Source: Octopus vulgaris (Eukaryota). Taken from it: DNA of 64,000 nt. Positions within the stretch are counted from its first letter, which is position 1. The number at the start of each line of letters is the position of its first letter. The notes under the pieces are model-generated. The model saw nothing but the letters and a program-made list of their open reading frames with translations, did not search any database and was not told the DNA's origin. Positions 16,024 through 56,935 of the stretch are shown in pieces. The DNA lies in the NCBI GenBank assembly GCA_951406725.2, contig OX597826.1:63798001-63862000 (forward strand). The letters are read 5' to 3'. The translations under genes and the position numbers were made by a program.

Positions 16024-16191
16024 GTGGTTGTATACTGTCAACTTAACGTGACAGTAAGGGAATTACACCACCGCTGTTTAGCCCTAGGAAGCATCGACGC
16101 TTCCTGTCGGCCTTGACGTCGATGCTTCCTAGGGCTAAACAGCGGTGGTGTATTCCCTTACTGTCACGTTAAGTTGACAGTATACAACCAC
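16024..16191. repeat. Near-perfect inverted repeat (76/75-bp arms, 17-nt spacer) inside an insertion flanked by a 15-bp direct repeat
   Basis: Arms 16024-16099 and 16117-16191 differ by one indel; atatatagatactgt occurs at 16011-16025 and 16250-16264. Confidence 0.95.
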
Positions 16192-30717: not shown

Positions 30718-33700
30718 GTATGTATTTTAAATCCTCTCGTCATGGGTAGATTTTCGAGGGGTTTTTTTTTTTCTCAGTTGAAGTGTGGAGTCTGTTTTGG
30801 GGGTTGTTTTTTTTTATATATATATATATATATTTTAAATTTTAAAATGATAAAACTGAGTAGTTATTCATAAAGAAACACAGAGTAGTGACAAATTGAA
30901 TGTAAACATATATCGTAATGTTATTTTTCATTTGTTTGAATTCAAATTTAAGCTTTGGTGTGTTAGGCAATTTATGGGAAAACATTTCAGTTTTATGAAT
31001 TTTGAAATTTCAAACTAAAAGAAAGAAAAAATTAAGAAAATTTGCATCAGAATCCCCTGTCTGGTTACTATTGTTTACAGGTTTATTAGCTATCAGCTGA
31101 TGTTGTTTGTTGCAACAATTGTAAGCAATTCATCTACACAGTCCACAGGTGTAGCTGTGTGGTTAAGAAGGTTGCTTCCCAACTATGTTGTCTTGGGTTC
31201 TGTCCCACTGTATTGCACCTTAGGCAATTGTCTTCTACTTTAATTCCAGGCCTGCCAAAAGCCTTGTAAGTGGATTTTGTTGACAGAAACTTGAAAGAAG
31301 CTTGATGTGTGTGTGTATACCCTTCTCTTGACATCACATGATGGTTGTAAATAATCATCATCATCTTACAAGTAAAGTTGTTCATTTCCAGTCTTCTGTG
31401 ACAAACCTGTTGGGCTATAGGGAAATATTCACCTTTGCTTGGTAACAGATGAGGGTAGGTAACAGAAAGGGCATCTGGCCATAAACATTTACCTCAATAA
31501 ATTCTGTCTTATCCATGTAAGCACAGTAAAGTAGACTGACTAATGTTAGCACTCAGTTTAATTCCTGTCTTTTTATCTGTATATGGAATTATTGTTGTTT
31601 AACCCTGGGTCAGCTGTGATTTAATAGACCTGTGATCAAAAACATTCAAGTCCATGACCAGTAATTTTTTTTTTTATTTAAGCATTGTATAATCACCATG
31701 CTTAATATTGTTGTTTAACCCTGGGTCAGTCCAGATGACTAAGCAGCCTTATGACTAAAGGCACTCCAGTGAAGATAGAGGAAGGCTTTGTGGTTAAGAA
31801 GTTTGCTTTGCAACCACACAGTTCCACGTTCATTTGGTTCCACTGCATGCTACCTTGGGCAGTTGTCTTCTACTGTAGTCCCAGGCCAACCAGTGTGTTG
31901 TGAGAGAATTGAAAGACAGAAACCATTTGGAAGTCCATAGTGTCTTTTTTGTGTGTGTTTTATCTTTTACTTGTTTCAATCATTGGACTGTGATCTTTCT
32001 GGGGCACTGCCTTGACGGGTTTTTGGTTGAACAAATCAACTCTAGTAATTATTATTTTTTTTAAAGCCTGGTACTTAATCTATTGGACTCTTTTGCTAAA
32101 TATTAAACGACAGGAATGTAAACAAACCAGCAGTGGTTGTAAGGTGATGGTTGGGGAGAAGCACAAAGACACACAGGCATAGGCGTGTGTGTGAGTATAT
32201 GTAATGGTCTTCTTCAAGATTCTGTCTACCAAATCCACTCATAAGACTTTGGTTGGCCTGGGACTATGGTAGTAGACACTTGCCCAAGATGCCATGCATT
32301 GGGACTAAACTTGAAACCATGTGGATAGGAAGCAAACTTCTATCACACAACCAATCTTGCACCTGTGTGTGTTTGTTTGTTCCCTATAACTTAGTGGTTT
32401 AGAAAGAAAAATCTGATAGACCAAGCTTGAGTCAATTTGTCTGACTTAAAATCCTTCAAAGGCTGTGAATGCCCCAGTATGATGGGGCACCTACAGTATC
32501 TGAAACAAGTAAGAAGATAGAAGATACAATAATAATATAAATAAAAGCAAGTAGAGGACACCAAAAACCATTTATGCTCAATAACTAAGTATTTTTTATG
32601 TGTTCTACAAGTTTGTAATACAGAGAATATGTCCTACTTGAATTTTGAGAAATGTTGCACATATTAGTGCAACCACAAATATGCCATAATTTTACATCTT
32701 CTTTTCCATGCTGGTATGGGTTGGAATAGTTTCCTTTTTTTTTTTTTTGGTTAAGGCAGTGTTTTACAGTTAGGATATGCCCATCGTGATGCTAGCTCTT
32801 TCAATCATTTCTTATAGCGTGTTGGGCTAAAACCCAGATATATGCACTCTATATATTTGTGAGTGTATTCGTGCATAGGTTGGTGGTGAAGGGTAGTCTG
32901 GTTAAAGAATCCTGTCCTGGGCCGAGTTTGTGCACTTTTGCAAACTTTGAGCTGCCTTAGACTTGTGATGACAGAAATTTGAAATTCATGGGATGCTACT
33001 GCTAGTGGGTGGTTGTAAATGAATGTCACCATCATGCAAGTGCTGTTCTTCATTTCCAAACTTCTGTGAAAACAGATTTAGTCATTGGGAAATATTAGCT
33101 TACTTAGCAACAGGTGAGGGTTGATGACAGGAAAGGCATCAAGCCATAGAAAATCCACGTCAAACTATATGAAAGGTTGCTGAATATGGAGAACGTGTGG
33201 GGGAGATAGAGACTACCCCAAGTAACTCCATCCAGCTGTGAAGTTTGATAGTATCTAAGGATATGAAGAAAGGGAAGCCAACCTGACCATCTAAGATAGT
33301 TACTGAGACACTAAAAATATCCAATGATGTAGAGTTAGGGCACATGCTAATCACTTACATGGTCAGTCAGGTAGTAGAGGTAAATGTTGGTGTTTTCCTC
33401 AATAACTGAATGAGATGAAGGATGGTTACCACAGATGATCTCTACATATTGGTTTCAAATTTTGGCACAAGGCCATCAATTTAGGGGGAGGGAGTTAAGT
33501 CAGTTTGATTGACCCCAGTATTCAACTGGTACTTATTTTATTCAACCCATAAAAGATAAAAGACAAAATCAACCATGGCAACATTTGAACTCAGAACATA
33601 AAGTCAGGCAAACTGCTTGGTGGCATTTTGCCCAGCATGCTGAAGATTCTGCCATCTTGCTGCTTTCCAGATGCCCTCTTCATATTGATGCAACTTCAGA

Positions 33701-41700: not shown

Positions 41701-43882
41701 CACAGATGTAAACAAACTCACACGCCTGTGTGTGTGTGCACATGGCTGCTATGGTTATGCTCAGAGCTCCAGGTAGCTTATCCTATTCCAGTCTGCTCCC
41801 AGTATAGTGATTAAGTAACTACTATACTTAGTTGTATTAAGTTACAGAAAACTGTCATTAGTGCTGTTACACACACACACACGTGAGGCTTCTTTCAGTT
41901 TCTGTCCTGTAAATCTACCCATAAGGTTTTGGTCAGCCTGAGGCTATAGTAGAAGATTATACCCAAGATGTGGTGCCCAAACTTCTCAAACCGCACGGCC
42001 AAGCCTGCACCTATCTCTATTATTTTGTATAAATAATGTATGCATAAAAGATTAACTTGACAGCTACAAGTATACTAACTCAAACAACCTCTGTTCTGTT
42101 TACTCAGTCTCTTTCCCCAACTTTTATCTCAACAGTGGAGGCAGATATAATATTCTATTATATCTTTTTTTTTTCTATTCTGAATTTAAATCCCAGCATG
42201 TGTGTGGCTGTTGATATTGCTCTTTCAGCCTGTCAAGTACCAGTAACATATTGGGATTGAGACGAGTAGAGAAACTAATAATGACATAACAGATTAGTAT
42301 AAGAAAAGGAAACTCCTGAGTTTTCACTGTTGCTTAAGTCATTCATCATTCATCATCATCATCATCGTTTAACGTCCGCTATTTTGTAAATATAAAAACA
42401 AAAAATGTCCCAGTGCATGCTTTAGGAAAGTGTCTTCTACCATAGCCTCTGGCCAACAAATGCCTTGTTAGTGAATTTGGCTGAAGCCTGGTGTGTGTGT
42501 TTTTGTTTGTCCACACACACCACTTGGTAACTGGTGTTGGTTTGTTCATATCCCATAATCTAGCAGTTTGGTAAAAGAGACAGATAAAATTAGACTTAAA
42601 TAAGTACTGTGGTTTTTTTGGGGTTGTTTTTTTTTTTATCTTCAACTAAATTCTTCAAGCCACAGTCCAATGACTGAAACAAGTAAAAGATATTCAGTAG
42701 TCAGGCACAGATTAGATCACTGTTGTATATCATGTGCTTCCCTATTCTTTTCAGTATTGTGTGGATCCCATTGTTGATGGTGTGATAATTCAGGTGTCAT
42801 TCACCTTAAACTTGCCCACTTGTCTTCACTTTTACTCCAACTAACCAAGCCATCACTCCCAACCCCCATCTGACAATCTATTTGGCATCAGACCAAGGTA
42901 GTGTCTTTATTCTGACTGAGAGTTTTCACAGCAAGCTAATCCTTTTCTTATTTTCAAAGATCTATTGGACCAAAAATAAAAATTGAATAGATTAAAAACC
43001 ATAGCCATCGCAAGCAAGTAAGTATGACATGGCAGCAAGCATCATGCTTTCACTACTTGTTTTTGGTAACCCTATGTAGTGCTAAGCAATCATAGACATT
43101 CTCAGCCCTCCAGCCCTTGTGCTAGTGGAATGTTGAGAGATGGCTGCACCAGCTCTCAGCTGGTACTCATTTTTTAAGTTGAGCAGACAGAAACAATTCA
43201 AAGTGAAACGCCTTGTTCAAGAACACAGCTTGCTGCCCAGCCCTGAAATCAAATGATCAATTATAACCACAAGCCGAACATGTTGTGACAGAACTTGCTC
43301 ACCTTGTGGTTAAGGCCAAAATAATAACCAGAATATCATCTTTTAACGTCCGCTTTCCATGCTAGCATGGGTTGGACGGTTCAACTGGGGTCTGGGAAGC
43401 CCGAAGGCTGCACCAGGCCAGTCGGATCTGGCAGTGTTTCTACAGCTGGATGCCCTTCCTAACGCCAACCACTCCATGAGTGTAGTGGGTGCTTTTTATG
43501 TGCCACCGACACAGGTGGGTGCCAGACGAGGCTGGCGAACGGCCATGCTCGGATGGTGCTTTTTACGTGATAATTACAAATTTCCTATATGTATAATTCT
43601 GTGCTACCATACATTGAGCAAATTTTTTCTTTTTGGGGTTTTCATGACAAGTCATTTTGGATTATGCATATATAATAATACACCAGGTGTGAATATTTGG
43701 ACTAACTTGAGGTTAAAGATAGTTTAATTGTGACAAATCAATGTCTGCTGAAAAATACATGCTATTGTTAAAGCTTACTCTTTTGTCCTTAGTGGTTCAT
43801 CATAGACCAGCTTTTGGTTCCTTTCTCACAGCTTTGTTGAAACTAAATTGATAATTCCTTCCATTATTATTATTCATTTCAG

Positions 43883-43957
43883 GATTTTCATGTTTTGGCC
43901 AAGGCTCCACTAGTGGCTTTTCCTTTGGTTCCAATACTGCTGCTGTGAAACCTCTAG
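43883..43957 (+). CDS. NUP58: NUP58 penultimate FG exon (75 nt, GFSCFGQGSTSGFSFGSNTAAVKPL)
   Basis: catttcag acceptor, G|gttagt donor, phase 1-1; resembles vertebrate ..TFGFGTTNKPSG. Confidence 0.9.
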
Positions 43958-45411
43958 GTTAGTGGGTGGTAAGGTTTCCTGGATCTTTCTCTATCTTTCC
44001 ATTTCTTTCTCCTTCCCTCTTCCTTTCACTCACTCACTCACTCACACACCGACACCCCCCCCCCCCCCCACCTCTCTGTCTCTCCCTCCTCCTCTCTTTC
44101 TCTCTGCCTTCCACTCGATTTTCTTTATTTTTAAACCACACCCGTCGGACAATCAATCAATAAGCTGTTTGATAGATGGACCCTTCGTTGGAGCAATAAA
44201 ATTTGATATCCAACAACATACCAGTATTCTTCAATGACAGCAAATTCACACATGTAAAATAAAAAAAAAAAATAATTTTATATACTGCTTATAAAAGAAA
44301 CCAAAAAAAAAAAAAACAACCAAGCTTTCAAGTCTGCTGTTTTCCAATTTTGGCCTTAGGCTGTTTTTTTTTTTTTTTCTTTCTTTTCCTTCAATCCTCA
44401 TTGAATCATTAGTGCTGTGTAATGTAAACATTTCTTTACAAACAAGAACCAAATATATCTGCTTCAACAAAAAAGAAACGTGTACGCTTAACTTCATCTG
44501 CTGATACTTAAGAGATAGGGGAAGCAAATAAAAATATAATCATGCTCTCGACTTCTTCCTATAACCTGTCAACAAGAGAAAGGCAAAAATATTCTAGGCA
44601 TTAGACGGTTACTGGTTTATATTTACGAAACCATATTGATGAATATTTTTTTTTTTTCTTCTTCCTTTTAATAAAAAATATTTGAAGAATCAAACATGTC
44701 CTATTTTCTCTGCATCCATTAATATCTAAAAGAAGTAATTTGTCTTTCCTTTGTTGTGATGACGCTTAGAAATGTATTATTTCTGGTTGTTTGTCCCTTT
44801 AGTTTTTGCATTAGCTCCTGTCGTTGTTGTATATGTTGTCTGTGTTTGTACGTACATGTGTGCACCCATTCTATATTGCACATTTACAACTATATTTCTC
44901 TGTGTCCACATTGCTGTAATTTTGAAGAATTTTTGATATGATCGTATGCAATTTGTGTGTGAATGTGTGTGTGTGTATTGAATGAAGGTACATTTCATTT
45001 AATAAAAAGTTTCCTTTTCTTGACACAAATGTTGAACCAATTTGAAAATTTTATACACACACACACATTAGTTTAACTAATCAGATATGACAATGGTACT
45101 GTTGCAATAATATTTAGGTTTTGAAATAGATTTCAAAAGTACTTTTGAAATTAATTTTTGCAGAACAGTTTAAGATTTTTGGTTACTAGCCTGGGATACT
45201 TTCAGTAAAGTTACCAACATGATATTTAGCTACTGCTGGTGATTTTTCCAAATCATTTCTTATATTATTAATTATATAAATATAGGTAATTAAATGTTAT
45301 GAAAAACAAATTTGCTGTTAAATTCCCCAGTATTTATGAGGAGAAAATCTAATGATATGACGCTGTAAACTAGTAGATATTGTTTCATCATATACTTGTA
45401 CATAGATTCCT

Positions 45412-45546
45412 ATCATTTTTTAAAGTTATCCCTCGCATTTTCTATAGAAATTAGAGCCAGCACTGAGAGTATACAAAACATTCGTAACTCTCAATGCTGA
45501 CTCTAGTTCCTATAGAAAATCTGTTGAGATAACTTTAAAAACTGAT
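45412..45546. repeat. Imperfect inverted repeat (about 60-bp arms, short loop)
   Basis: ttttaaagttatc..attttctatagaaattagagccagcactgagagt pairs with actctcaatgctgactctagttcctatagaaaat..gataactttaaaa. Confidence 0.9.
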
Positions 45547-46293
45547 TCAATCACACTGCTAACATGATATTGACTTATAAACCCTTCTATATACTTGATA
45601 GAATACTATGGTTACATAACTAAATACGGTGTCCCTACCAGTGATTAATATGTGCCTACATATATTGATTGTGACAGTTGACACCTCTCACTTTCATATC
45701 CTGACATTTTAAAAATAATACCTGTATTCACTGTAGGAAGTATAATTATCATTTAAGGAGAAAATCTGGAAGAAATGTGGCACAAACTCAATTTTTGGTG
45801 ATATGACATCATCATCATCATTTAACGTCCGTTCTCCATGCTGGCATGGGTTGGACGGTTCGACCGGGGATCTGGGAAGCCAGAAGGCTGCACCAGGCTC
45901 CAGTCTGATCTGGCAGTGTTTCTACAGCTGGATGCCCTTAATTATATTAACAATAACAAATATTTCTTAGATTAGCACATGGTTATAAATTTTCAGGAGT
46001 CAGTTGAATTGATCTCATTGTATAACTGTTCTCTATTCTCATCAGACATAAGGGTAAAGAAAATCAAAACCAGCTCCTGGAGTTGACAAGAAAGAGATCT
46101 AACTAAATCCTTATCATTCAATGTCCATTTTCGGTGCTGGCATAGGATGAACAGTTCAGCAGGAACTGGTGAGCCAGAGGAGTGCACCAAGACCCTCTGT
46201 CTGCTTTGGTATGGTTTCTTTGACTGGGTATCCTTCTTAACATCAACCACTTAACTGAGTGTATTGGGTGCTTTTTATGTGGCACCAGCCCAG

Positions 46294-47985
46294 TGAGATT
46301 GTATAACATTTAAGAGAATATAGCTACAAATTGATGTAAAAAAATATTTAAATAAATTTTTATATATTTGTGTAATAGTGAGGGCAACACCAGTTATTTC
46401 TCTGTAATAATATATATTAATTATATCAAAGTTGACAGCTTACTTTGAGTTCAACTCCAGGTTAAGTTGTCCACTATACACACATACACATTCTGTGTAT
46501 GTGATGAAATTAAAATATAACAGATACACTTGCAGCATACTAGATAACAAGGAACCTTCTACATGGTCACTAGAAATAGCAGCCAAATCTCTTTTACGTA
46601 TCATATCTTAAATAAGGAAAGAACACGTTAGACAATGTAATTCTGGATACTCCTAAAAAGAAGTGATGGCCACACACTGAAGGCCTTTGAACCTGAGGCT
46701 AAAAGAATGATAATGAACTTTTTTTTTTCTTGCATTGGCCAAAAATACCCTCATTTTCAGTGTGAACATCTTGTTTACAAATAATATTTAATACTACTTA
46801 TATAGTGCAATGTTATTTAGTGATTTCTCCTACATATTTTTATTAACTTTAAGGTTTTTCTTAATATAATGTGTAGAACAAAGCATCACGTGAAGTGACT
46901 TCTGTTCACCCTAGTTGTTAATGTGTTTAAGTTTCACTTCAAATGCCTGATTCAACCAAATCACCCTTGCAGTCCATTCAATTACATAATTGAGTTATCT
47001 TGTTTGTCATTGGATTGTGCATCATGCTGGGGCACCATTTGAAGGGTTTTGTTGAATAAATTGACCGCAGTACATATTTCCCTAAGTCTGGTACTTATTC
47101 TCTCTGTCCCTTTTGTTGAACTGCTAAGTGATGGGGGCATAAACAAACCAACTCTGGTTGTCAAATGGTGAGAGAGACAAACACAATGACACATATTCTC
47201 AGATATGGCGGCGAGCTGGCAGAAATGTTAGCACCCCGGGCAAAATGCGTAGCCATATTTCATCGTCTGCCGTTACGTTCTGGGTTCAAATTAAGCCGAG
47301 GTCGACTTTGCCTTTCATCCTTTCGGGGTCAATAAATTAAGTGCCGGTTACGCACTGGGGTCGATGTAATCGACTTAATCCGTTTGTCCTTGTTTGTCCC
47401 CTCTGTGTTTAGCCCCTTGTGGGTAGTAAAGAAATATATTCTCAGATATAAGTAAAAAGTGGCATACATGGTGTTACATTTATTCCATGGTTCACAGGCT
47501 TCCACCACTCTTTCCATCTACCAAATTCACTAACAAGGCATTGTTCAATTCAGTACCTATTGTAGCAGACACTTGCCCAAGGTGCTGCACAATGGGACTG
47601 AACCCAAAACCATATGGTTGCAAAGTGAGCTTCTTACCAGCTAAACATTAAAATATTTCCTATCCTATACACTAACAGAGAAATTGAGAGAATGTAGTTG
47701 TCCATCAAAATTAACAATATATCAGTTGCTTTTCATAATTCCATCAGGAAGTGAGGAAGATGTTCTGATAAAACGCCTCTGTTTATCATATTTTTTTTAA
47801 TGCCATATAAGGCCAATTTGCTTTTACCTGGCACAGAAACCTATGTAACAGGTATGTATGAGTAGAAATGAGATTGTGTAACATTCAAGAGAATATAGCT
47901 ACAAACTGATGTAAAAAATATTTAAATAAATTCTGATACATTTTTGTGTAATAGTGAAGGCAACACCAGTTATTTCTCTTTAATA
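46294..47985 (+). repeat. Local direct duplication of about 116 bp (46294-46409 and 47869-47985)
   Basis: tgagattgt.taacatt.aagagaatatagctacaaa.tgatgtaaaaaa..gtgtaatagtga.ggcaacaccagttatttctct is present twice. Confidence 0.9.
47207..47435 (+). mobile_element. Young SINE (Meta/Nin-like core) with 14-bp TSD, nested in an older SINE
   Basis: TSD atattctcagatat at 47193-47206 and 47436-47449; head ggcggcgagctggcagaa..gggttcaaatt; core gtcgactttgcctttcatcctttcggggtc. Other copies at about 105, 33447, 38790 and 48280. Confidence 0.9.
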
Positions 47986-47986
47986 T

Positions 47987-48256
47987 GTTTGTTCCTTCTC
48001 AAGCCATGCCTAGCTCATAAGGGCTGGTTTCCTTGGCGTATAGGTTCCCCGCCTGGACGGGATGCCAGTCCATCGCAGGTGAGCTACAAGATGCAGGAGG
48101 AAAGAGTGAGCAGAAGTTCGCCATTACCTTCTGCCGGAGCCATGTGGAGCTTAGGTGTTTCGCTCATAAATACACACATCGCCCAGTCAGAGATTCGAAC
48201 CCGTGATCCCTCGACCGCTAGTCTGTTGCTCTAACTACTAGGCCATGTGCCTCCAC
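47987..48256 (-). mobile_element. tRNA-derived SINE with 11-bp TSD
   Basis: TSD ctctttaatat at 47976-47986 and 48257-48267; minus-strand head gtggaggcacatggcctagtagttagagc..gggttcgaatctc with A and B boxes. Confidence 0.88.
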
Positions 48257-50820
48257 CTCTTTAATATAGGATACAGTAAAAAGGCGGCAAACTGGCAGAA
48301 TCATTAGCACAATGGGCAGAATATTTAGCATTTTATCTGTCTATATGTTCTGAGTTCAAATTCCACCAAGGTCTACTTTGCCTTTTATCCTTCTGAGGTC
48401 GATAAAACAAGTACCAGTTGAATACTGGAGGTCAATGTAATTGACTTATCCCTTACCCAAAATTGCTGGCCTTGTGCCAAAATTTGAAACATGATGCAAT
48501 AATTGAGAAGTGTTAAATATTAATATAAGGAGTTGTATCAATTGAACCGAAATTTTGAGGGGAGTTAACTGTGAATTTTAAAGATAAGAATAATGTGGTA
48601 GTGTGAATTATTTTGTTGTATCTTGAATGGAAACTAGTGAATAGTTTTAAGAAATTTTATTCACTATAGGCATAGCTGGTTTTGAGTTCAGTCCCTTAGT
48701 GCCGCACCTTGGACGAGTGTCTTCTATAATAACCCTAGACTTACCTATGCCTGATGGGTGAATTTGGTAGATGGAAACTGGTTGCCCATCACTTATATGT
48801 GCTTGTGTCCTCCATCACTATTTGGTAATTAATGTTAGTTTGTTTACATTCTTTTAGTAGAGTAGCTTAACAAAAGGGACCAATAGAATATGTCAAGATA
48901 AGTACTGGCATCAGTGTGTTCAACGGAAACCCTTCAAGGCAGTGCCCCGGCATGACTACCATCCAATGACTGAGACAAGTAAAAGATAAAGATTATACTA
49001 TCTAACCATCCCAGTAAGCCAGATTATCTAAAAGCTACTTATGAACGATTCAGTTTGGAATTTAGGTGTAATTTACACTATCTGTTGTTGTTAAGTGTGA
49101 GATCTGTCTCACATATTGTAATATATAACTGCTTCAACATGCTGAACAAAATTACTGAAATCTTCTCCAAGAGCCATCACAGTTTTATTCATTAAGGTTA
49201 GTAACGGTGGTAGGTATGTATACATCATTATCATCATCATCATTACCACAGCTACTTTTCCCTGCTGGTATGGGTTGCACAGTCTTTATTGAGGCAGATT
49301 TTCTATGGCCACATGCCCTTGCTGTCTCCAATCCTCGCCTGTTTCCAAATAAGATAATGTTTCACCATGACTCACACTCGTTTACAATTATATGATGTGA
49401 AAGCAGAGAGACAGTAATACACATATTTATGTATGTAATATATATTTATAAACGGACTGCCATACAGGTTTTGTCAACCAAAATACTCACATGGGCATTC
49501 GTTGGCCTAAAACTATTGTAAAAGCCACTGCCCAAGTTGAACCCGAAACCATGTGGTTGGGAAGCAGACTTCTTATCACACAACCATGCTTTCACCTATC
49601 ATTAATTTAATTTGGTTTTTAAAGGATCGGGCTGCTCCCACTTTTTAATTTTTGTCAAGCAATTGAAAAAAGAGTCAGTTTAAAATACTGTCAGTGGTGA
49701 AAAAGTCCAGTGTGTAAATCTGGTCCATCACAGCATTGAATAAATTTCTCTGGGATAAAATACAAACCAACATTAGTATTGTTCTTAGAACAGCTTTGTG
49801 CTTACAACCCACCCTTCAGCTAAAGTAGAATTGACTTTATAGCTTACTTAGATATCCCTGAAAAATTGTTACGGATATCAACTTGTAAAATCGGAGCTTG
49901 TAGCATGGTTCTTTCCCGAAATTGCCTTTCTTTCTGTTGGTTTGAAATGTTCATAAATGCTATCATATGTTTGTAAGTCATAAAAGTAAATGGAATTTAT
50001 CATTATATTTCTTTTTTCTATGAAAAGAAAAAGAAAACTTTAAACTAAAAGTTCTTGCATTACTAAAAATATTAGGAGCCTAGTACCCCATTCTTCCCAT
50101 TTTTTTTTTTTTTTCTTTTCAATTTCAAATTAGAAAGTTATACTATTAGAATTAATCTAAGCTGAAATATTTGCGACATTTGTGCTTACTAAATTCACTC
50201 ATGATATAACTTCAGTATTACTAACATTAGTAACTAGGATTTTGAGTAGTTTTACTGAAAGCTACCTTTCAATGGGCTTAAATAATATTTTTCTGCAAAT
50301 GATTTTTAAAAAATTTTTATTTTACAAATTTTGGATTTTCTTTTAGCTTTTAAATTAATACCATATGTATGTTTAAATTTTAATCCATTTTCATTCAATA
50401 TTTTTTCGAATATGTAACTTTCATCCCATAACTGAAATTTATTTAATTTTTGGTTTTTTTTTTTTAATTGCCAGTTGTCTCCCTTGTCATTTTCATTTAT
50501 TTATTTTTAACATTTTCAAGACATTTTTGTACCATTTTTATTTATTTATTTATTTGTTTGTTTTTTTTTCTGTTAATTTAGTTTTTGTCTGAAATACCAA
50601 CTCATAATGTTTACTCATATACATCGTTAAATAAATTACAAATAATAATATTTTTAAAATCCTCAAAGACAGACAAACTAATAAAGCTTAATCCCCACCA
50701 CCCGCTTCGCCTCTCCCTTTCTGCCCATCACAACATATTAACCCTTTGAAATATTGTTTAATAGATATTTTAGCTATTCATAGCTTGTTTGTATTTTTTT
50801 TTTTTAAATCTGTTTTGCAG

Positions 50821-50922
50821 GTTGAAAATATTAAATTCCTGTGAAATTTTGGTCATGAGAGAACCGTCATTGTTCTTTAATGCAGTGCGTGTTCTCTTGT
50901 GGCCTTTTGACTTCTAGTGCAA
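50821..50922 (+). other. Predicted cryptic stop-containing (poison or alternative) exon
   Basis: T12..tctgttttgcag acceptor and CAA|gtgagt donor; after the phase-1 donor at 43957 it reads GGT TGA. Confidence 0.6.
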
Positions 50923-53900
50923 GTGAGTTTCTTATTCTAGTTTGGGTTGATTATCTTATTAAGTAAACTTAATTTAATTAAGGATTTTTTTCTTTTCCCC
51001 TTCCCTACTCCTTCCTTTCTGTGTGCGCCTGATTAAATAAAATATTTATATATGTGTGTATATATATTTATATCTATAGAGTATGGAAATTTTGCTTCAA
51101 TCTTCATCTTAATTCTTTTCCCAGTTAGAAATTTTTAAGTTGATTAAAATTTGAAATTTTAGTTTTTGTAAACTGAAATGGGGAGAGTGATGAAATGAAT
51201 AAAAACATTTTAAAAAATACAGTAAGAAGTTGAATTAAATTCAGTTAAAAAAAAAAAGGTATGAACATATCTTCTACTTGTTGCAGTCATTGGACTGTGG
51301 CCATGCTGTGGCACTGTCTTGAAGGGTTTAGTCAAACAAATTGACGCCAGTACTTCTTTTTTAAGTCTGGTACTTATTCTATCACTCTCTTTTGTCAAAC
51401 CACTAAGTCATGAGGATGTAAACAAACCAACATCGGTTATCAGGTTGGGGGGGAGGGACAAACACAACACAAAAACACACACACACATATATATACATGA
51501 CAAGCTTCCTCTCAGTTTCCGCCTGCCAAATTTACTCAAAAGGCATTGGTCAGCTCAGTAGAAGATACTTGCACAATGGGACTAAACCTATAACCAACCA
51601 CATGGTTGTAAAACGAGCTTCTTAACTCCATAACGAAGATATTCTAAATGTGAGAAGCAAAAAATTATTTCAGATTCCTTTCCTTTTTTCCTCTACTTAA
51701 TTTCGGTTTATGAAAACAAAATCCCAGTTGTAACCTCTTGAAATTTCAGTCTGGTGGAAGGAAGATGATTTCCATCTCTTATATATATATACACATACAT
51801 ACATATATAAATATATAATATGTATAATACATTCGATAGTTTTCTAAGGTTAGAATTAATTGTTCTTATAATCTTGCTCTTCTCTCTACAGTCATAGTGC
51901 TTCTTTGTTACAGCATGTGTGACATACCCGTTTTCAACAGACCCTATCTTTCTTCTAAACTCCAAAAAAGATTTCTTTCTAGACTCAACCATTTGATTTA
52001 CTTACTTCTGAATACACCTTGAGCTATCTTTCTTTTTGGTACTCTACTCATCAACTCCCTTACCTGTGTGACCAATCTCTTTTCTTCTGGTTTGAAACTT
52101 CGGCTCTGTATTCATTGGAATGTATCTGATGTTTCTGGCAATAAACAAGTTTAGAAACAGTAATATAACATATTACTACTTAACAAATTTTCCTATCCAG
52201 TTGGCTGGGTAACATTATTTTAAACATATCTTATAAATGAAAGGTTGTGTTTGCAAATAATTCCGTGGCCTGCTAGCAATTCTCTTTTCTATTTTGAGTG
52301 TGCTTAAGATTGCCAAACAATAATTATACAAATTTAAGATGTCTTTTTTTTTTTTAAAAAAGAAAAAGGACATTTTGTTTGTTTTCTAAAAGACTTAAAC
52401 AATAATAAATTATAATTATAGTATTTAATATTATTTTCTCTGTGATTACCAGTCTATTCTGCACTGGCTGTCATGCATGTTGCTTTCATTGGTTTTCATA
52501 AAATTTGCATGTCCTGGAATGCTGGATAAAATGCAATAATTGAAAAAAGAAAAAAAATGCTTGATCTATGACTAGTTTGTAGAGATTGTTTAATTTCAAT
52601 ATTATTGTCATATCATATATAACAAAGCTAAAACTTGCTAATGTTTTGACTTTCTAGTTATTTCTTATATATTTTATTTATTCAATGAATTGGGATGCTT
52701 TGTCTTTTCTTTGGTATTATCTTCAAACTTTATTAGTAACAGTTATTCAAGTGGTTCTTGAAGTACAAGGTAGCATCTGAGAGGAAGTGGGGGGACTAAA
52801 ACAGCATAGTAATTAAGTAGCTGTAGCCATGTTATATGTATATATATTTATATTCATTTGTTTTAAAGCTCAGACTTAACTCAATCAAAACGAATAGCTA
52901 AAATTCTGTGTATTCAGGACTTTCTCCTCTTGTACATCAAAAACTCCAACACCATTCTGATCAAATTGAAAATCCTACTGTTGAAACTATTAACACTGAA
53001 AATGTTATTGTCGGTAAGGTTACGGACTTTTTTTCCAGTCTACATGTAATATCAGTATGAAATTATGACTAATTGGTTGTCATAAAGAGAGAAGTGCAAG
53101 GTATAACAACAATAAAGGAGGTGGGTGTGGACCTCAACTTAACTATTTGTAAAATATGTGCTTAGTCTGTTACCATGGTTTCTTAACTGATTACCACAGC
53201 AGATTGCTAGGAGTATCATAAGTATTATCAAACACATACAATATTTTGATTGCTAAAGTAGAAGTATCCTTGGATTTTTTTTTTTTTTTCCAAAAGCAAT
53301 TCAAAACCTTAATTACTATAATGTTACCAGCAAAATAAGTTTAAGTGTTGTCTTATATTATGGTGGGTGGTCATGGAGATAATTAAAGCTTGTAAAGAGT
53401 ACAGTCAATTATATAAGATCCAGAAAGTTAAAAGGCAAAGTTGACCTTAGGGATTTGAACTGAGAACTGTAAATAAATACCAGAAATTTTGTCCAGCCCT
53501 CTAATGATTCTTTCAATTCATGGTCCTTGTAGTAGTCAAACACTAAGCTGTTTGATTACTGTTGAACGGTTTTCAATTAGCTGAACAACTCAAAAGGAAG
53601 TCAAAACTCTTTCCTTGGAAAGTCAACATTTTGTAACATGAATCCATGTTTTCATGACCAAGACAATTTTCTATATCCCAGTTTGCATAGCTATAAGTAG
53701 GTATGATGGGTAGGAATGAGATAGTTTAAAAACGTCTCAAACAATCAGGAAAGGAATCGGTTAAATTTTGACATTAAACGTATCCCCATTAGTATAATTT
53801 TTCTGCCACAATTTAGTACTATAAAGCACTAATATGCATTTGACACATCTGCTGAAGAGTGTGTTGCCAACTGCCTTGATTTCATCTTTGGCGATTACCA

Positions 53901-54277
53901 GCATCCAAAGATCTGACCTCATTATTTCTCTGTCTGTGACTGCCCATCTTCAATAGCATACAGCACATTTTTTATTTAAATTCTTCAAGAAAGGAAATAA
54001 ATTTTATTCCTACTTTACAAGGCTCATATGTTATGATTTTTATCAAAAGCATTTGTTACCTGGAATAAATATATTTAACCAAGAATTGAAAATGAGTTGC
54101 GCAAACTAAACTGGCCAGGGGTTTACCTTTCATTGTACATTGATTTTTCTGCATGAGACCCAGGTCAGCCCTGAGCAAATTTATGATAAGAAGCATTCTA
54201 ACCATGACCAGTTTATCTTTGTATGACATAGTCTTACATACACAAGTGTGATTTGATTGATATTTCAAGCCAAATAA

Positions 54278-54507
54278 CCATGGTTCTCAATTATTTTTGC
54301 CTATGGACCCTCTTTGATTCCTATTTCACTCAGCTGAACCCTCAAAGCCATTTGATGTTTAAAAAAAAAATCCTACAATACCATTGTAATTAAATAGGAA
54401 TTGTATAAAAAAATTTTAATATTTTGTGTACTGTGGAGATATAACCAATTTATTGCACATAAATTTCTACACAAAAATCTTATATGGACCTCAGTTGAGA
54501 ACCACTG
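54278..54507. mobile_element. Decayed hAT (Charlie-like) MITE
   Basis: Ends ccatggttctcaa / ttgagaaccactg; repeated ggaccc subterminal motifs; no clear TSD. Confidence 0.6.
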
Positions 54508-55033
54508 ATGCAGAGGGTCCCTGGAATTACTGTATTTGAAGGGAAAAATGTTATTAGTACATTAAAGCTTATGAGAGTCCTGACTTTGCATATAGCACCC
54601 TAGGACATCCTTTTGAGACAAGTTTTTGGGGAAAAAAAGTCCATCTTATATGCCATCAAATATGGTAGATATAGAGATTTAATATAACCTATAATACTGT
54701 CTTGAATCACACATTCCATTTCTGTGACTCCCACCTTTATCTGAACAAGGTATAAGGGAGCTTAATTGTTTCCTACTTTTCAAAGCTAGAATATCTAAAA
54801 TATAGAAACAGGATAGTACTAATGATTAAATGAAATTCTCAACCCTTCAGTGAATGTTAGTTCATTCAGAATTAAATAGGATAATTAGTGACTAGAAATA
54901 GTTTTAAAAGATCTTTCAGTTTGCACAAATTCAAGACAAAAACTAAATTTTTTTTTCTCTTTCACACTCACACATAAACAATTTATTGAAACTCCAAAGA
55001 ATTTAATAATGATAATATTTATATAATTTTACC

Positions 55034-55415
55034 TTAATCTTTTAGCATTCAGATCTGTCCAGTGTAATGCTTACTTATTTATTCACATTGTTATGAAAGA
55101 ATCATGCATTATCTCGAAGCTATGAGATTTCAGTGATACGATTGTTTATTTATAGAATTACATTGTAGGATAAGTGTGATAAGCTGGATCTGGACAGTTT
55201 AACTTTTTAGCATTCAAACCAGCCATATCCAGCCAAAATATTCTGTTTTATGTACAAACTGGCCAGATCTGGCCTCTGCCATCTACAGTATAATTTCACT
55301 CTAAAATAAACAATCATCAACGTCTCAAAGCTAGAAGATAATGCATGATGAATTGAAAAACAATGTGAGTAAATAAGCATTACATTTGACAGAATAATCT
55401 GAATGCTAAAGAGTT
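55034..55415. mobile_element. Head-to-head pair of piggyBac-like MITE copies
   Basis: A minus-orientation partial copy at 55034-55200 abuts a plus copy at about 55201-55415, both of the 56936 family. Confidence 0.8.
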
Positions 55416-55491
55416 ACATGAAAAGTTGTGGTTTATGCATTTGTTGAAGTTCTGTTTCCTTATTGACTAATTACAATATTTTTTTTTCCAG

Positions 55492-55608
55492 GCTGTACAG
55501 AAAAAAAAAATCGATTATTAAGTAAAATACATTGCTCGCATGTTCTTCAATTAAAATTTTAGCTTCTCTTTAAAAAAAGCATGTATTACAATGTTTAGAA
55601 TCTGATGT
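55492..55608 (+). other. Predicted alternative acceptor or cassette upstream of the terminal exon
   Basis: Branch-like gactaat near 55465, T9-ccag acceptor; in-frame TAG at 55560-55562; possible gtgagt donor at 55609. Confidence 0.45.
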
Positions 55609-55726
55609 GTGAGTGTGTGAACATTGTAGAAGTGAAATTAATCTTTCTGTATACGAATAATATTCTGATTAGAATCGATTCTGTCGTCACAATCCTTGAA
55701 TTTCTTTTGTCCCCTGTTTTTGTTAG

Positions 55727-55965
55727 GAACAATCCTCAATACACCAGGGAATATATTCGGTACATCAGGAAGCACAACAACACAGCCAGGACTGCTCGGT
55801 ACACAACCCAACGCCGCAACTGGAGCAGCATTCTCATTTAATAATCTGTCGACAACGCAACCCAACTTTGCTACCGGAGATGGACAACAGTTAGCTGGAG
55901 GCCAAAACAGAGCTTTTCAATTACAAAAACCACCTCCACCAGCCAGTAAGCGGGGCAAACGGTAA
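55727..55965 (+). CDS. NUP58: NUP58 terminal coding exon ending AFQLQKPPPPASKRGKR*
   Basis: Pyrimidine tract plus tgttag acceptor, phase 1; the C-terminus matches vertebrate LQLKKPPAGNKRGKR; TAA ends at 55965. Confidence 0.96.
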
Positions 55966-56269
55966 TGTTTGACAATGTAAAGCTGAGCCAGATGACAAGC
56001 ACATTTTGTACATACGTAAAAATGTTTCAAAAAGATCTAAATTAAAATGAATGTTTGACTATTTCTACTATCATCCACATTAATAATACACTGAATTCTA
56101 ACTTTGTTTTTAAGATAATTATATGTAAAAGTAAAAACAAAAAATACAATACTTTTCTGTGTTATTTTTATAATTAAAAGCAAAATTACTCAGACATTGT
56201 ATTTTCTTCCTCACAGAATCCATTTGACTTCATCTGTAATTTTTGCCATTTGTCATTAAACATCTCAAC

Positions 56270-56275
56270 AATAAA
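56270..56275 (+). terminator. Probable poly(A) signal of NUP58
   Basis: AATAAA about 300 nt after the stop, followed about 20-50 nt later by a GT/T-rich tract (ctgtgttgctcaattttctattgtttagtttt). Confidence 0.6.
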
Positions 56276-56935
56276 AGCAACTTTTAACAACATATCTGTG
56301 TTGCTCAATTTTCTATTGTTTAGTTTTGATATATTCATATTAGTAAAACTTCATTTTACTATAAATTCTTTGACCAACATACTGTAATACTTAATTCACT
56401 TGGCAACCCTGTACATCCTTATCACTGCACTGTACCACACCAATGTGCTATGATGTATAGGTAGATGTACTGCCAAAAATAGTTCATTTTTAATAAATGT
56501 AACACAAACTAAAAATTCTAAATAAAGTACCTAATTTTTTTGTAAGCCAAATGGTTTAAACATTCACATTGCAAGTGAAATTGGACAGACAGAAACTGTA
56601 TCAAAGCCCATTGGCTAGATTATCCCTGTACTTTAAAGTTACAACCTTGTCACTGTGACATACTGATTCCACCACAGAATTATATTAAGTGTACATGTGC
56701 CTGTGGACTGTTTTGCCACTTACAAACTAAATCAATGAGCAATTAATTCAGTTGATCAAACAACTGAATCCTCATTGATGGAATCAATGAAAATCTATTT
56801 TATTTAGAGGCTAAACTATGTAAAGAACTTTTTCTGGTTCACCATACTTCAACTTCGTACAAAAAAATACACCAAAATATTTATATATGTTCTTAAGTTT
56901 GTCATGTGTAAAAGTTTGGAAACCACTGCCTTAAA

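What the first reader, a model, noticed from the sequence alone, without database searches (positions are those of the whole stretch)
50821..50922. Predicted poison exon whose first full codon is a stop
Seen: a textbook acceptor (T12-aaatctgttttgcag|G) and donor (CAA|gtgagt) define 102 nt. TGA at 50823-50825 is in frame after the 43957 donor and lies 97 nt upstream of the next junction. Known: stops more than 50-55 nt before a junction trigger NMD. Inference: unproductive splicing controlling Nup58 stoichiometry, or the same short protein if used as a terminal exon.
Basis: partly seen in the sequence, partly recalled or inferred. Interest (0 to 1): 0.7.

Follow-up and report, generated by a model that had tools for sequence, protein, structure and literature searches.

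The report
Hairpin poison exon in octopus Nup58
The last intron of an octopus nuclear-pore gene (Nup58) hides a 102-base stop-bearing segment with a strong predicted hairpin; one sequenced contig splices it to the final exon while keeping the intron in front, so it likely diverts transcripts to a shortened form that is likely held back or destroyed.

Summary
The sequence claims are exact: acceptor 50821, donor 50922, in-frame TGA 97 nt before the junction. The gene is octopus Nup58. The splice-site pair alone is not beyond chance (2 pairs seen, 1.1-1.5 expected). Two things make the element real. One contig (1 of 4 runs laid) joins the donor to the last exon. That contig runs unbroken through the acceptor, so what was seen is upstream-intron retention, not cassette inclusion (0 of 2 covering contigs use the acceptor). 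Read-through of the upstream donor and inclusion give the same protein ending KPLG*, which is annotated in three Octopus species; a spider has the same three isoform types at the same junction. Best reading (0.5): a poison/decoy exon that trims full-length Nup58 output. Rivals: a productive Nup45-like isoform (0.22), a pre-miRNA (0.1), noise (0.1). NMD, inclusion and conservation beyond close kin are untested. New member of a known kind.

The parts
43883..43957 (+). Penultimate coding exon of Nup58 (75 nt, phase 1-1, FSCFGQG...AVKPL); itself skipped in annotated isoforms
   Evidence: skipped in XP_014786222.1, XP_036364258.1, CAI9732024.1
43958..43963 (+). Donor GTTAGT; reading through it gives Gly then TAG (43960-43962), i.e. 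the KPLG* short protein
43958..50820 (+). Upstream part of the last intron (6863 nt); its last 104 nt are kept in the contig that splices the downstream donor
50794..50820 (+). T12 tract and CAG acceptor; among the 6 best of 2744 intronic AGs; use not observed
50821..50922 (+). 102-nt non-coding exon candidate (poison/decoy)
50823..50825 (+). In-frame TGA, first full codon after a phase-1 join; further in-frame stops at 50832 and 50856
50851..50904 (+). Predicted 54-nt hairpin, 22 bp, 5 G-U pairs, -30.7 kcal/mol on + strand and -13.3 on - strand
50923..50928 (+). Donor GTGAGT, spliced to the 55727 acceptor
50923..55726 (+). Downstream part of the last intron (4804 nt), removed in the spliced contig
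55727..55965 (+). Last coding exon (78 aa, ending FQLQKPPPPASKRGKR*), lost from the short protein
50455..50475 (+). Second strong acceptor candidate (would give a 448-nt exon with the same donor and a different C-terminus); no evidence of use
51036..51041 (+). AATAAA 114 nt after the donor; only relevant if the exon is used as a terminal exon; one of 19 such hexamers in this intron part

Best explanation
A 102-base non-coding segment in the last intron of octopus Nup58 has a donor that is spliced to the final exon, and it likely works as a poison/decoy exon: it likely diverts part of the transcripts into forms that stop at KPLG and are likely held in the nucleus or degraded. Steps: (1) shown in one contig: the 50922 donor competes with the 43957 donor for the last acceptor; (2) shown in the same contig, for the last 104 nt only: the intron in front is still present after the downstream intron has gone; (3) shown from sequence: both the retained form (TAG 43960) and the fully spliced cassette form (TGA 50823) end the frame at the same residue and leave a junction 6960 or 97 nt downstream; (4) inferred: the upstream intron is slow, the retained RNA accumulates, and the finished +102-nt mRNA is rare because it is degraded; (5) predicted: the 22-bp hairpin is the control element, shortening the exon to about 50 open bases or binding a double-stranded-RNA protein. 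What signal sets the ratio is not known; feedback from pore or export status is a guess.
For: Donor use with one-sided retention: contig 5 of run X8, depth 18.4, loose end placed. One-sided retention beside a decoy is described in PMC7373989 (passage), and cassettes that are rare or undetected without NMD block in PMC6097662 (abstract and passages). The intron is 11.8 kb, in the >1-kb class of that paper. Acceptor ranks in the top 6 of 2744; donor matches 8 of 11 consensus letters, true donors 6-10. Hairpin: exon z -5.35, 0 of 200 shuffles as stable; 0 of 729 other 102-nt windows of the last two introns are both as stable and as strand-biased, and 1 of 506 with GC <=0.40 is as stable. In the gene it is outranked only by a TA/TG microsatellite and one DNA palindrome; a given hairpin would fall wholly inside the exon with chance about 0.001 (computed after the fact). 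No match to repeats elsewhere in the window.
Against: The acceptor is crossed unspliced in 2 of 2 covering contigs. The spliced junction rests on one contig of one run from a differently labelled organism, with 29 letters on the far side, under the tool's 31-letter mark for a bridge. A second contig (X6, depth 3.7) is unspliced at both ends. The retained form could be an ordinary splicing intermediate. The short protein is annotated repeatedly, which fits a productive isoform. No NMD data; no distant orthologous DNA, so no conservation or covariation test. The splice model rests on 12 introns of this one gene.
Confidence: 0.5

Rival explanations
1. Productive Nup45-like isoform switch. The 50922 donor is a distal alternative donor (or the intron is retained), giving a stable mRNA with a long, intron-containing 3' UTR that is translated into a Nup58 lacking its last 78 residues and the basic KRGKR tail. 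The acceptor only helps to define the donor or gives a second route to the same protein.
For: Both routes end in Gly-stop; only 8 of 1364 AGs in the last two introns are followed by GT plus a stop (after the fact). KPLG* proteins are annotated in O. vulgaris, O. sinensis and O. bimaculoides and called on 2 of 3 contigs of an unnamed more distant relative. The spider Parasteatoda has long, exon-skipped and KPLGK* forms at the same junction. Rat Nup45 is a real splice-variant protein of the pore (PMC4004597, PMC2173148, passages).
Against: These are gene models or ORF calls, not proteins seen; pipelines call read-through forms at many introns (Xyrichtys has three different ones), and the Argonauta short form comes from a split model. 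A 7.5-kb 3' UTR with a junction is a typical decay substrate (PMC8339359). An intronic poly(A) signal near 44195 could make the short protein without this exon.
Confidence: 0.22
2. The hairpin is an intronic pre-miRNA (or another Microprocessor substrate), and the splice sites around it are secondary or compete with its processing.
For: 54-58 nt, 22 bp, 8-nt loop, sense-strand bias. Octopus has 90 novel miRNA families and the authors call their list an underestimate (PMC9699675, passage).
Against: Basal stem is weak (pair probabilities 0.32-0.45). No Rfam match on the hairpin down to E 10. No CNNC at the usual distance, read by eye from the sequence against recalled criteria. The hairpin is intact in a spliced contig.
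Confidence: 0.1
3. Splicing noise: a cryptic donor picked up at low rate in a long AT-rich intron, with a chance or decayed-transposon hairpin.
For: Site pairs of this strength are expected by chance. One contig only; 2 of 2 covering contigs ignore the acceptor.
Against: Contig depth 18.4 with no break at the donor. The hairpin depends on G-U pairs and folds well on the transcribed strand only, unlike the DNA palindrome at 16078; no copy elsewhere in the window, though the genome could not be searched.
Confidence: 0.1
4. Alternative last exon: the acceptor is used, the donor is read through and the RNA is polyadenylated near 51036, giving a decay-immune short mRNA.
For: AATAAA at 51036; the X6 contig spans 50796-51021 without using the donor.
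Against: That contig also ignores the acceptor and has depth 3.7; the donor is used in X8; such hexamers occur 19 times in 4804 nt.
Confidence: 0.04
5. Recursive splice site: AG|GT at 50821 lets the intron be removed in two steps, and the exon is its defining RS-exon.
For: AG|GT is present.
Against: The rebuilt donor TAG|GTTGAA scores -1.4 against 7.1-13.2 for true donors and matches 5 of 11 consensus letters. The contig shows the opposite order: downstream intron out first.
Confidence: 0.02

Closest known systems
Decoy exons of human SF3B1 intron 4, OGT intron 4 and ARGLU1 (PMC6097662, abstract and 11 passages read; PMC7373989, 3 passages read)
   Same: Short non-coding, stop-bearing cassette inside a >1-kb intron; retention beside it; full inclusion rare at steady state.
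   Different: Here the gene is a nucleoporin, the intron is the last one, both outcomes encode the same short protein, and half the exon is one predicted hairpin. Deep conservation, U2AF binding and retention-promoting activity, which were shown there, are untested here.
Poison cassette exons of SR-protein and other RNA-binding-protein genes (recalled)
   Same: In-frame stop more than 50-55 nt before a used downstream junction.
   Different: Inclusion and NMD not shown; Nup58 is not a known RNA-binding splicing regulator, so no direct autoregulatory loop is evident.
Mammalian Nup58/Nup45 (PMC4004597, 1 passage; PMC2173148, 8 passages; Hu and Gerace 1998 not held, seen only as a citation)
   Same: Alternative splicing of the Nup58 gene giving a shorter form; that Nup45 lacks the C-terminal part is recalled.
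   Different: The recurrent teleost short form (QQQQPT[PT]G-LTAYKF*, 3 species) stops two exons earlier than the octopus form, which keeps two more FG exons. No rat or human sequence was fetched.
NXF1/TAP intron 10 with its constitutive transport element (recalled, not tested)
   Same: Nuclear-transport gene, retained intron with an early stop, structured RNA element, short protein.
   Different: No Rfam or other evidence that this hairpin binds an export factor; the hairpin lacks large internal loops.
Octopus-specific miRNA precursors (PMC9699675, passages and part of the supplements)
   Same: Intronic, sense-strand hairpin of pre-miRNA size.

Membership tests
Poison exon (AS-NMD) | Canonical acceptor and donor bounding a cassette | tested here: met
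Poison exon (AS-NMD) | In-frame stop more than 50-55 nt before a downstream junction | tested here: met
   97 nt; junction seen in one contig
Poison exon (AS-NMD) | Inclusion with both junctions spliced | tested here: inconclusive
   Downstream junction in 1 of 4 runs; acceptor used in 0 of 2 covering contigs; contigs drop rare forms
Poison exon (AS-NMD) | Inclusion form rises when NMD is blocked | not testable with these tools
   No NMD-block data
Poison exon (AS-NMD) | Sequence conservation across species | tested here: inconclusive
   102 of 102 identical in one close relative with about 1% divergence nearby; no distant DNA found
Decoy exon (Parra et al. 2018) | Non-coding cassette in an intron over 1 kb | tested here: met
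   11,769-nt intron
Decoy exon (Parra et al. 2018) | Host intron is retained | tested here: inconclusive
Decoy exon (Parra et al. 2018) | Cassette promotes retention in a minigene; U2AF binds its acceptor | not testable with these tools
   Bench tests
Nup45-type short isoform | Short form keeps the coiled coil and loses the C-terminal tail | tested here: met
   Annotated models end KPLG*; feature recalled for Nup45
Nup45-type short isoform | Same truncation point as the vertebrate short form | tested here: not met
   Teleost LTAYKF* form stops two exons earlier; mammals not fetched
Nup45-type short isoform | Protein detected in the pore | not testable with these tools
   No proteomics
pre-miRNA | Unbranched hairpin of about 55-65 nt with 16 or more paired bases (criteria recalled) | tested here: met
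   54 nt, 22 bp
pre-miRNA | Basal stem of about 11 bp (recalled) | tested here: inconclusive
   8 pairs at probability 0.32-0.45
pre-miRNA | Match to a known family | tested here: not met
pre-miRNA | Small-RNA reads from both arms with 2-nt offsets | not testable with these tools
   No small-RNA reads available
Recursive splice site / RS-exon | AG|GT at the exon start | tested here: met
Recursive splice site / RS-exon | Strong donor rebuilt after the first step | tested here: not met
   Score -1.4; 5 of 11 consensus letters

The most novel reading that the evidence does not exclude
The last intron of Nup58 is an ancient protostome switch. Octopus and spider share three outcomes at the same KPLG junction (long, penultimate exon skipped, short), and cephalopods have added a hairpin exon that is read by a double-stranded-RNA protein (Microprocessor, ADAR, Staufen or an export factor) to set the ratio of tail-bearing to tail-less Nup58, possibly as feedback from nuclear transport on a central-channel nucleoporin, or while releasing an unlisted miRNA.
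Probability: 0.15. Interest if true: 0.68.

Novelty: new member of a known kind. Interest (0 to 1): 0.42.

Why it matters
How cells keep the Nup62-Nup54-Nup58 channel complex in proportion, and what the tail-less Nup45 form is for, are open. A structured poison/decoy exon would give a defined element to block or delete, in a gene class where my searches found no such exon reported. It is also a clean substrate for testing whether molluscs obey the 50-55-nt junction rule. As it stands it is one more probable unproductive-splicing element in one genus.

Tried and rejected
No whole genome is held, so repeat status and orthologs could not be checked. X1 and X2 have no contig on the exon and X8 none just behind the donor: holes prove nothing. 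Reads were laid only on 50700-51270, so the 43957 donor and any 43957-50821 junction seen from that side are untested. Searches for short proteins starting in the exon and running into the last exon: 0 of 2 candidates; 3 hits, one an Argonauta chimera. Metagenome scans: 0 hits; 7 hits, all unrelated palindromes with no match to the window. The other relative's ending DGKPSVDLFSQGNT has no match in the window. A-to-I editing of the stop to Trp: rejected, three in-frame stops and no A>G in the exon in the 2 covering contigs. SECIS or snoRNA: no Rfam hit. A stem hiding the acceptor: z -0.54, and accessibility within the range of true acceptors, not supported. Argonauta KPLR* as independent support: rejected, split gene model. 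PMC9699675 Data S1 (long-read annotation) was too large to unpack and the rest of that archive was not reached; it bears directly on acceptor use. Hairpin motifs and Nup58 were absent from the 65,650 characters that were readable. PMC4480902 (1 passage) and PMC11061143 (listing only) were not relevant. Scan notes on this gene: none.

Full report
Gene and context. The window holds a plus-strand Nup58 gene. Eleven of its exons match the Octopus vulgaris model CAI9732023.1 at 91-100% in tblastn, with differences at the edges of the hits, and twelve introns were placed exactly against that protein. The finding lies in the last intron, 43958-55726 (11,769 nt), between a 75-nt phase 1-1 exon ending AVKPL and the last coding exon ending KRGKR.

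Observation. Every stated letter and distance is right. By itself the pattern is not unusual: 6 of 2744 intronic AGs and 57 of 2819 GTs score as well under a rough model from the gene's own 12 introns, and they form 2 pairs against 1.1-1.5 expected.

Transcript evidence. Four runs, all contigs and RNA only by the tool's guess, were laid on 50700-51270; 5 contigs fell on it and 2 cover the exon. The X8 contig (organism B, depth 18.4) lies on 50717-50923 and ends in 29 loose letters that match the last exon from 55728 at 28 places. A clean GT-AG removal of 4804 nt is what a spliced RNA would show, so the donor is functional. The same contig crosses the 50821 acceptor without a break and begins at a place with no AG, so this RNA keeps at least 104 nt of upstream intron. 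The X6 contig (depth 3.7, 50796-51021) uses neither site. Inclusion was therefore seen in 0 of 2 covering contigs. The junction rests on one contig with 29 letters on its short side.

Coding consequence. Reading through the 43957 donor gives G|GT TAG; splicing to 50821 gives G|GT TGA. Both end the protein at KPLG, losing 78 residues with the FQLQKPP...KRGKR tail, a KRGK or KRNK motif found in 50 of 71 Nup58-like proteins fetched, from a hydrozoan to fish. Only 8 of 1364 AGs in the last two introns are followed by GT and a stop, a figure computed after the fact. KPLG* models exist for O. vulgaris (CAI9732025.1), O. sinensis (XP_029644295.1) and O. bimaculoides (XP_014786233.1), and as ORFs on 2 of 3 contigs of an unnamed more distant relative; the third ends in a different 14-residue tail. 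These proteins cannot tell which route made them. The Argonauta short form is a split model. The spider Parasteatoda has long, penultimate-exon-skipped and KPLGK* models at the same junction, so alternative handling of this intron may be old; that is an inference from annotation, and one fish annotation shows read-through forms at three different introns.

The hairpin. Positions 50851-50904 are predicted to fold into 22 bp with 5 G-U pairs at -30.7 kcal/mol, with pair probabilities of 0.96-1.0. The 102-nt exon, whose ends were set without regard to folding, has z -5.35 on the plus strand and -1.92 on the minus strand. Of 729 other 102-nt windows in the last two introns, 22 are as stable, 1 of 506 with GC <=0.40 is, and none is both as stable and as strand-biased. 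A coarser scan with 12 shuffles per window ranked it 12th of 498 by z, so strong folds do occur elsewhere, several in repeats or low-complexity DNA. It matches no Rfam family and no repeat in the window. No covariation test was possible.

Mechanism. The best fit is a poison/decoy exon. The inner donor takes the last acceptor first (shown once); the upstream intron lags (shown for 104 nt); either outcome leaves a stop far before the last junction, with 3' UTRs of about 670 or 7500 nt against about 330 (assuming the AATAAA at 56270); nuclear retention or decay follows (inferred). This parallels the decoy exons of PMC6097662, where cassette junctions are rare or undetected without NMD block, and the one-sided retention noted in PMC7373989. 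The 50-55-nt rule is from PMC8339359; its validity in molluscs is not established by anything I found. The main rival is a productive Nup45-like isoform, since rat Nup45 is a splice variant present in pores. A pre-miRNA remains possible: size and strand fit, the basal stem is weak, and the octopus catalogue could not be read. Recursive splicing fails on the rebuilt donor.

Novelty. Ten paper searches listed no paper on a Nup58 poison exon or on cephalopod Nup58 splicing, judged from listings; most subscription journals are outside the library, and the unread Data S1 of PMC9699675 may already contain these isoforms. The short protein is already in annotation. The element is a new member of a known kind, with an unexplained hairpin and a possibly ancient isoform switch as the parts worth following. 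Interest 0.42.

Noticed in passing
P0057, P0032, P0056 (Parasteatoda tepidariorum); window 43883-55965: Spider RefSeq models show the same three Nup58 isoform types as octopus at the same KPLG junction (long, penultimate exon skipped, short KPLGK*); a chiton long form has AVKPIG at that place.
   Followed up: partly
window 43883-43957: The penultimate exon is itself a frame-keeping cassette, skipped in models of three Octopus species.
   Followed up: partly
window 43958-44200: Possible second donor GTG|GTAAGG at 43968, 6 nt after the read-through stop, followed by a CU-rich block (8.2 UCUU/CUCU/UUCU per 100 nt against 2.2 background).
   Followed up: partly
P0033, P0045, P0063: Three teleost genera share a short Nup58 model ending QQQQPT[PT]G-LTAYKF*, a likely conserved alternative exon.
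   Followed up: no
P0017: An unnamed relative joins the penultimate exon to a different short ending (D-GKPSVDLFSQGNT*), with no match in this window.
   Followed up: partly
window 55960-56470: The O. vulgaris model CAI9732023.1 extends the C-terminus by 41 residues encoded at 56345-56467, implying a donor at the normal stop (CGG|TAA region).
   Followed up: no
window 42960-43017 and 32756-32925: Two further strong pseudo-exon candidates in the previous intron.
   Followed up: no
window 16078-16138: Near-perfect 61-nt DNA palindrome (-42.7 kcal/mol, both strands), probably a small transposon remnant.
   Followed up: no
window 45412-45546: Long imperfect inverted repeat in the upstream intron, with a copy elsewhere in the window; a possible editing substrate.
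   Followed up: no
P0044 (Argonauta hians GAB1601543.1): Gene model fuses a histone H2B-like piece (family recalled from the sequence) to the last Nup58 exon; likely an annotation error.
   Followed up: partly
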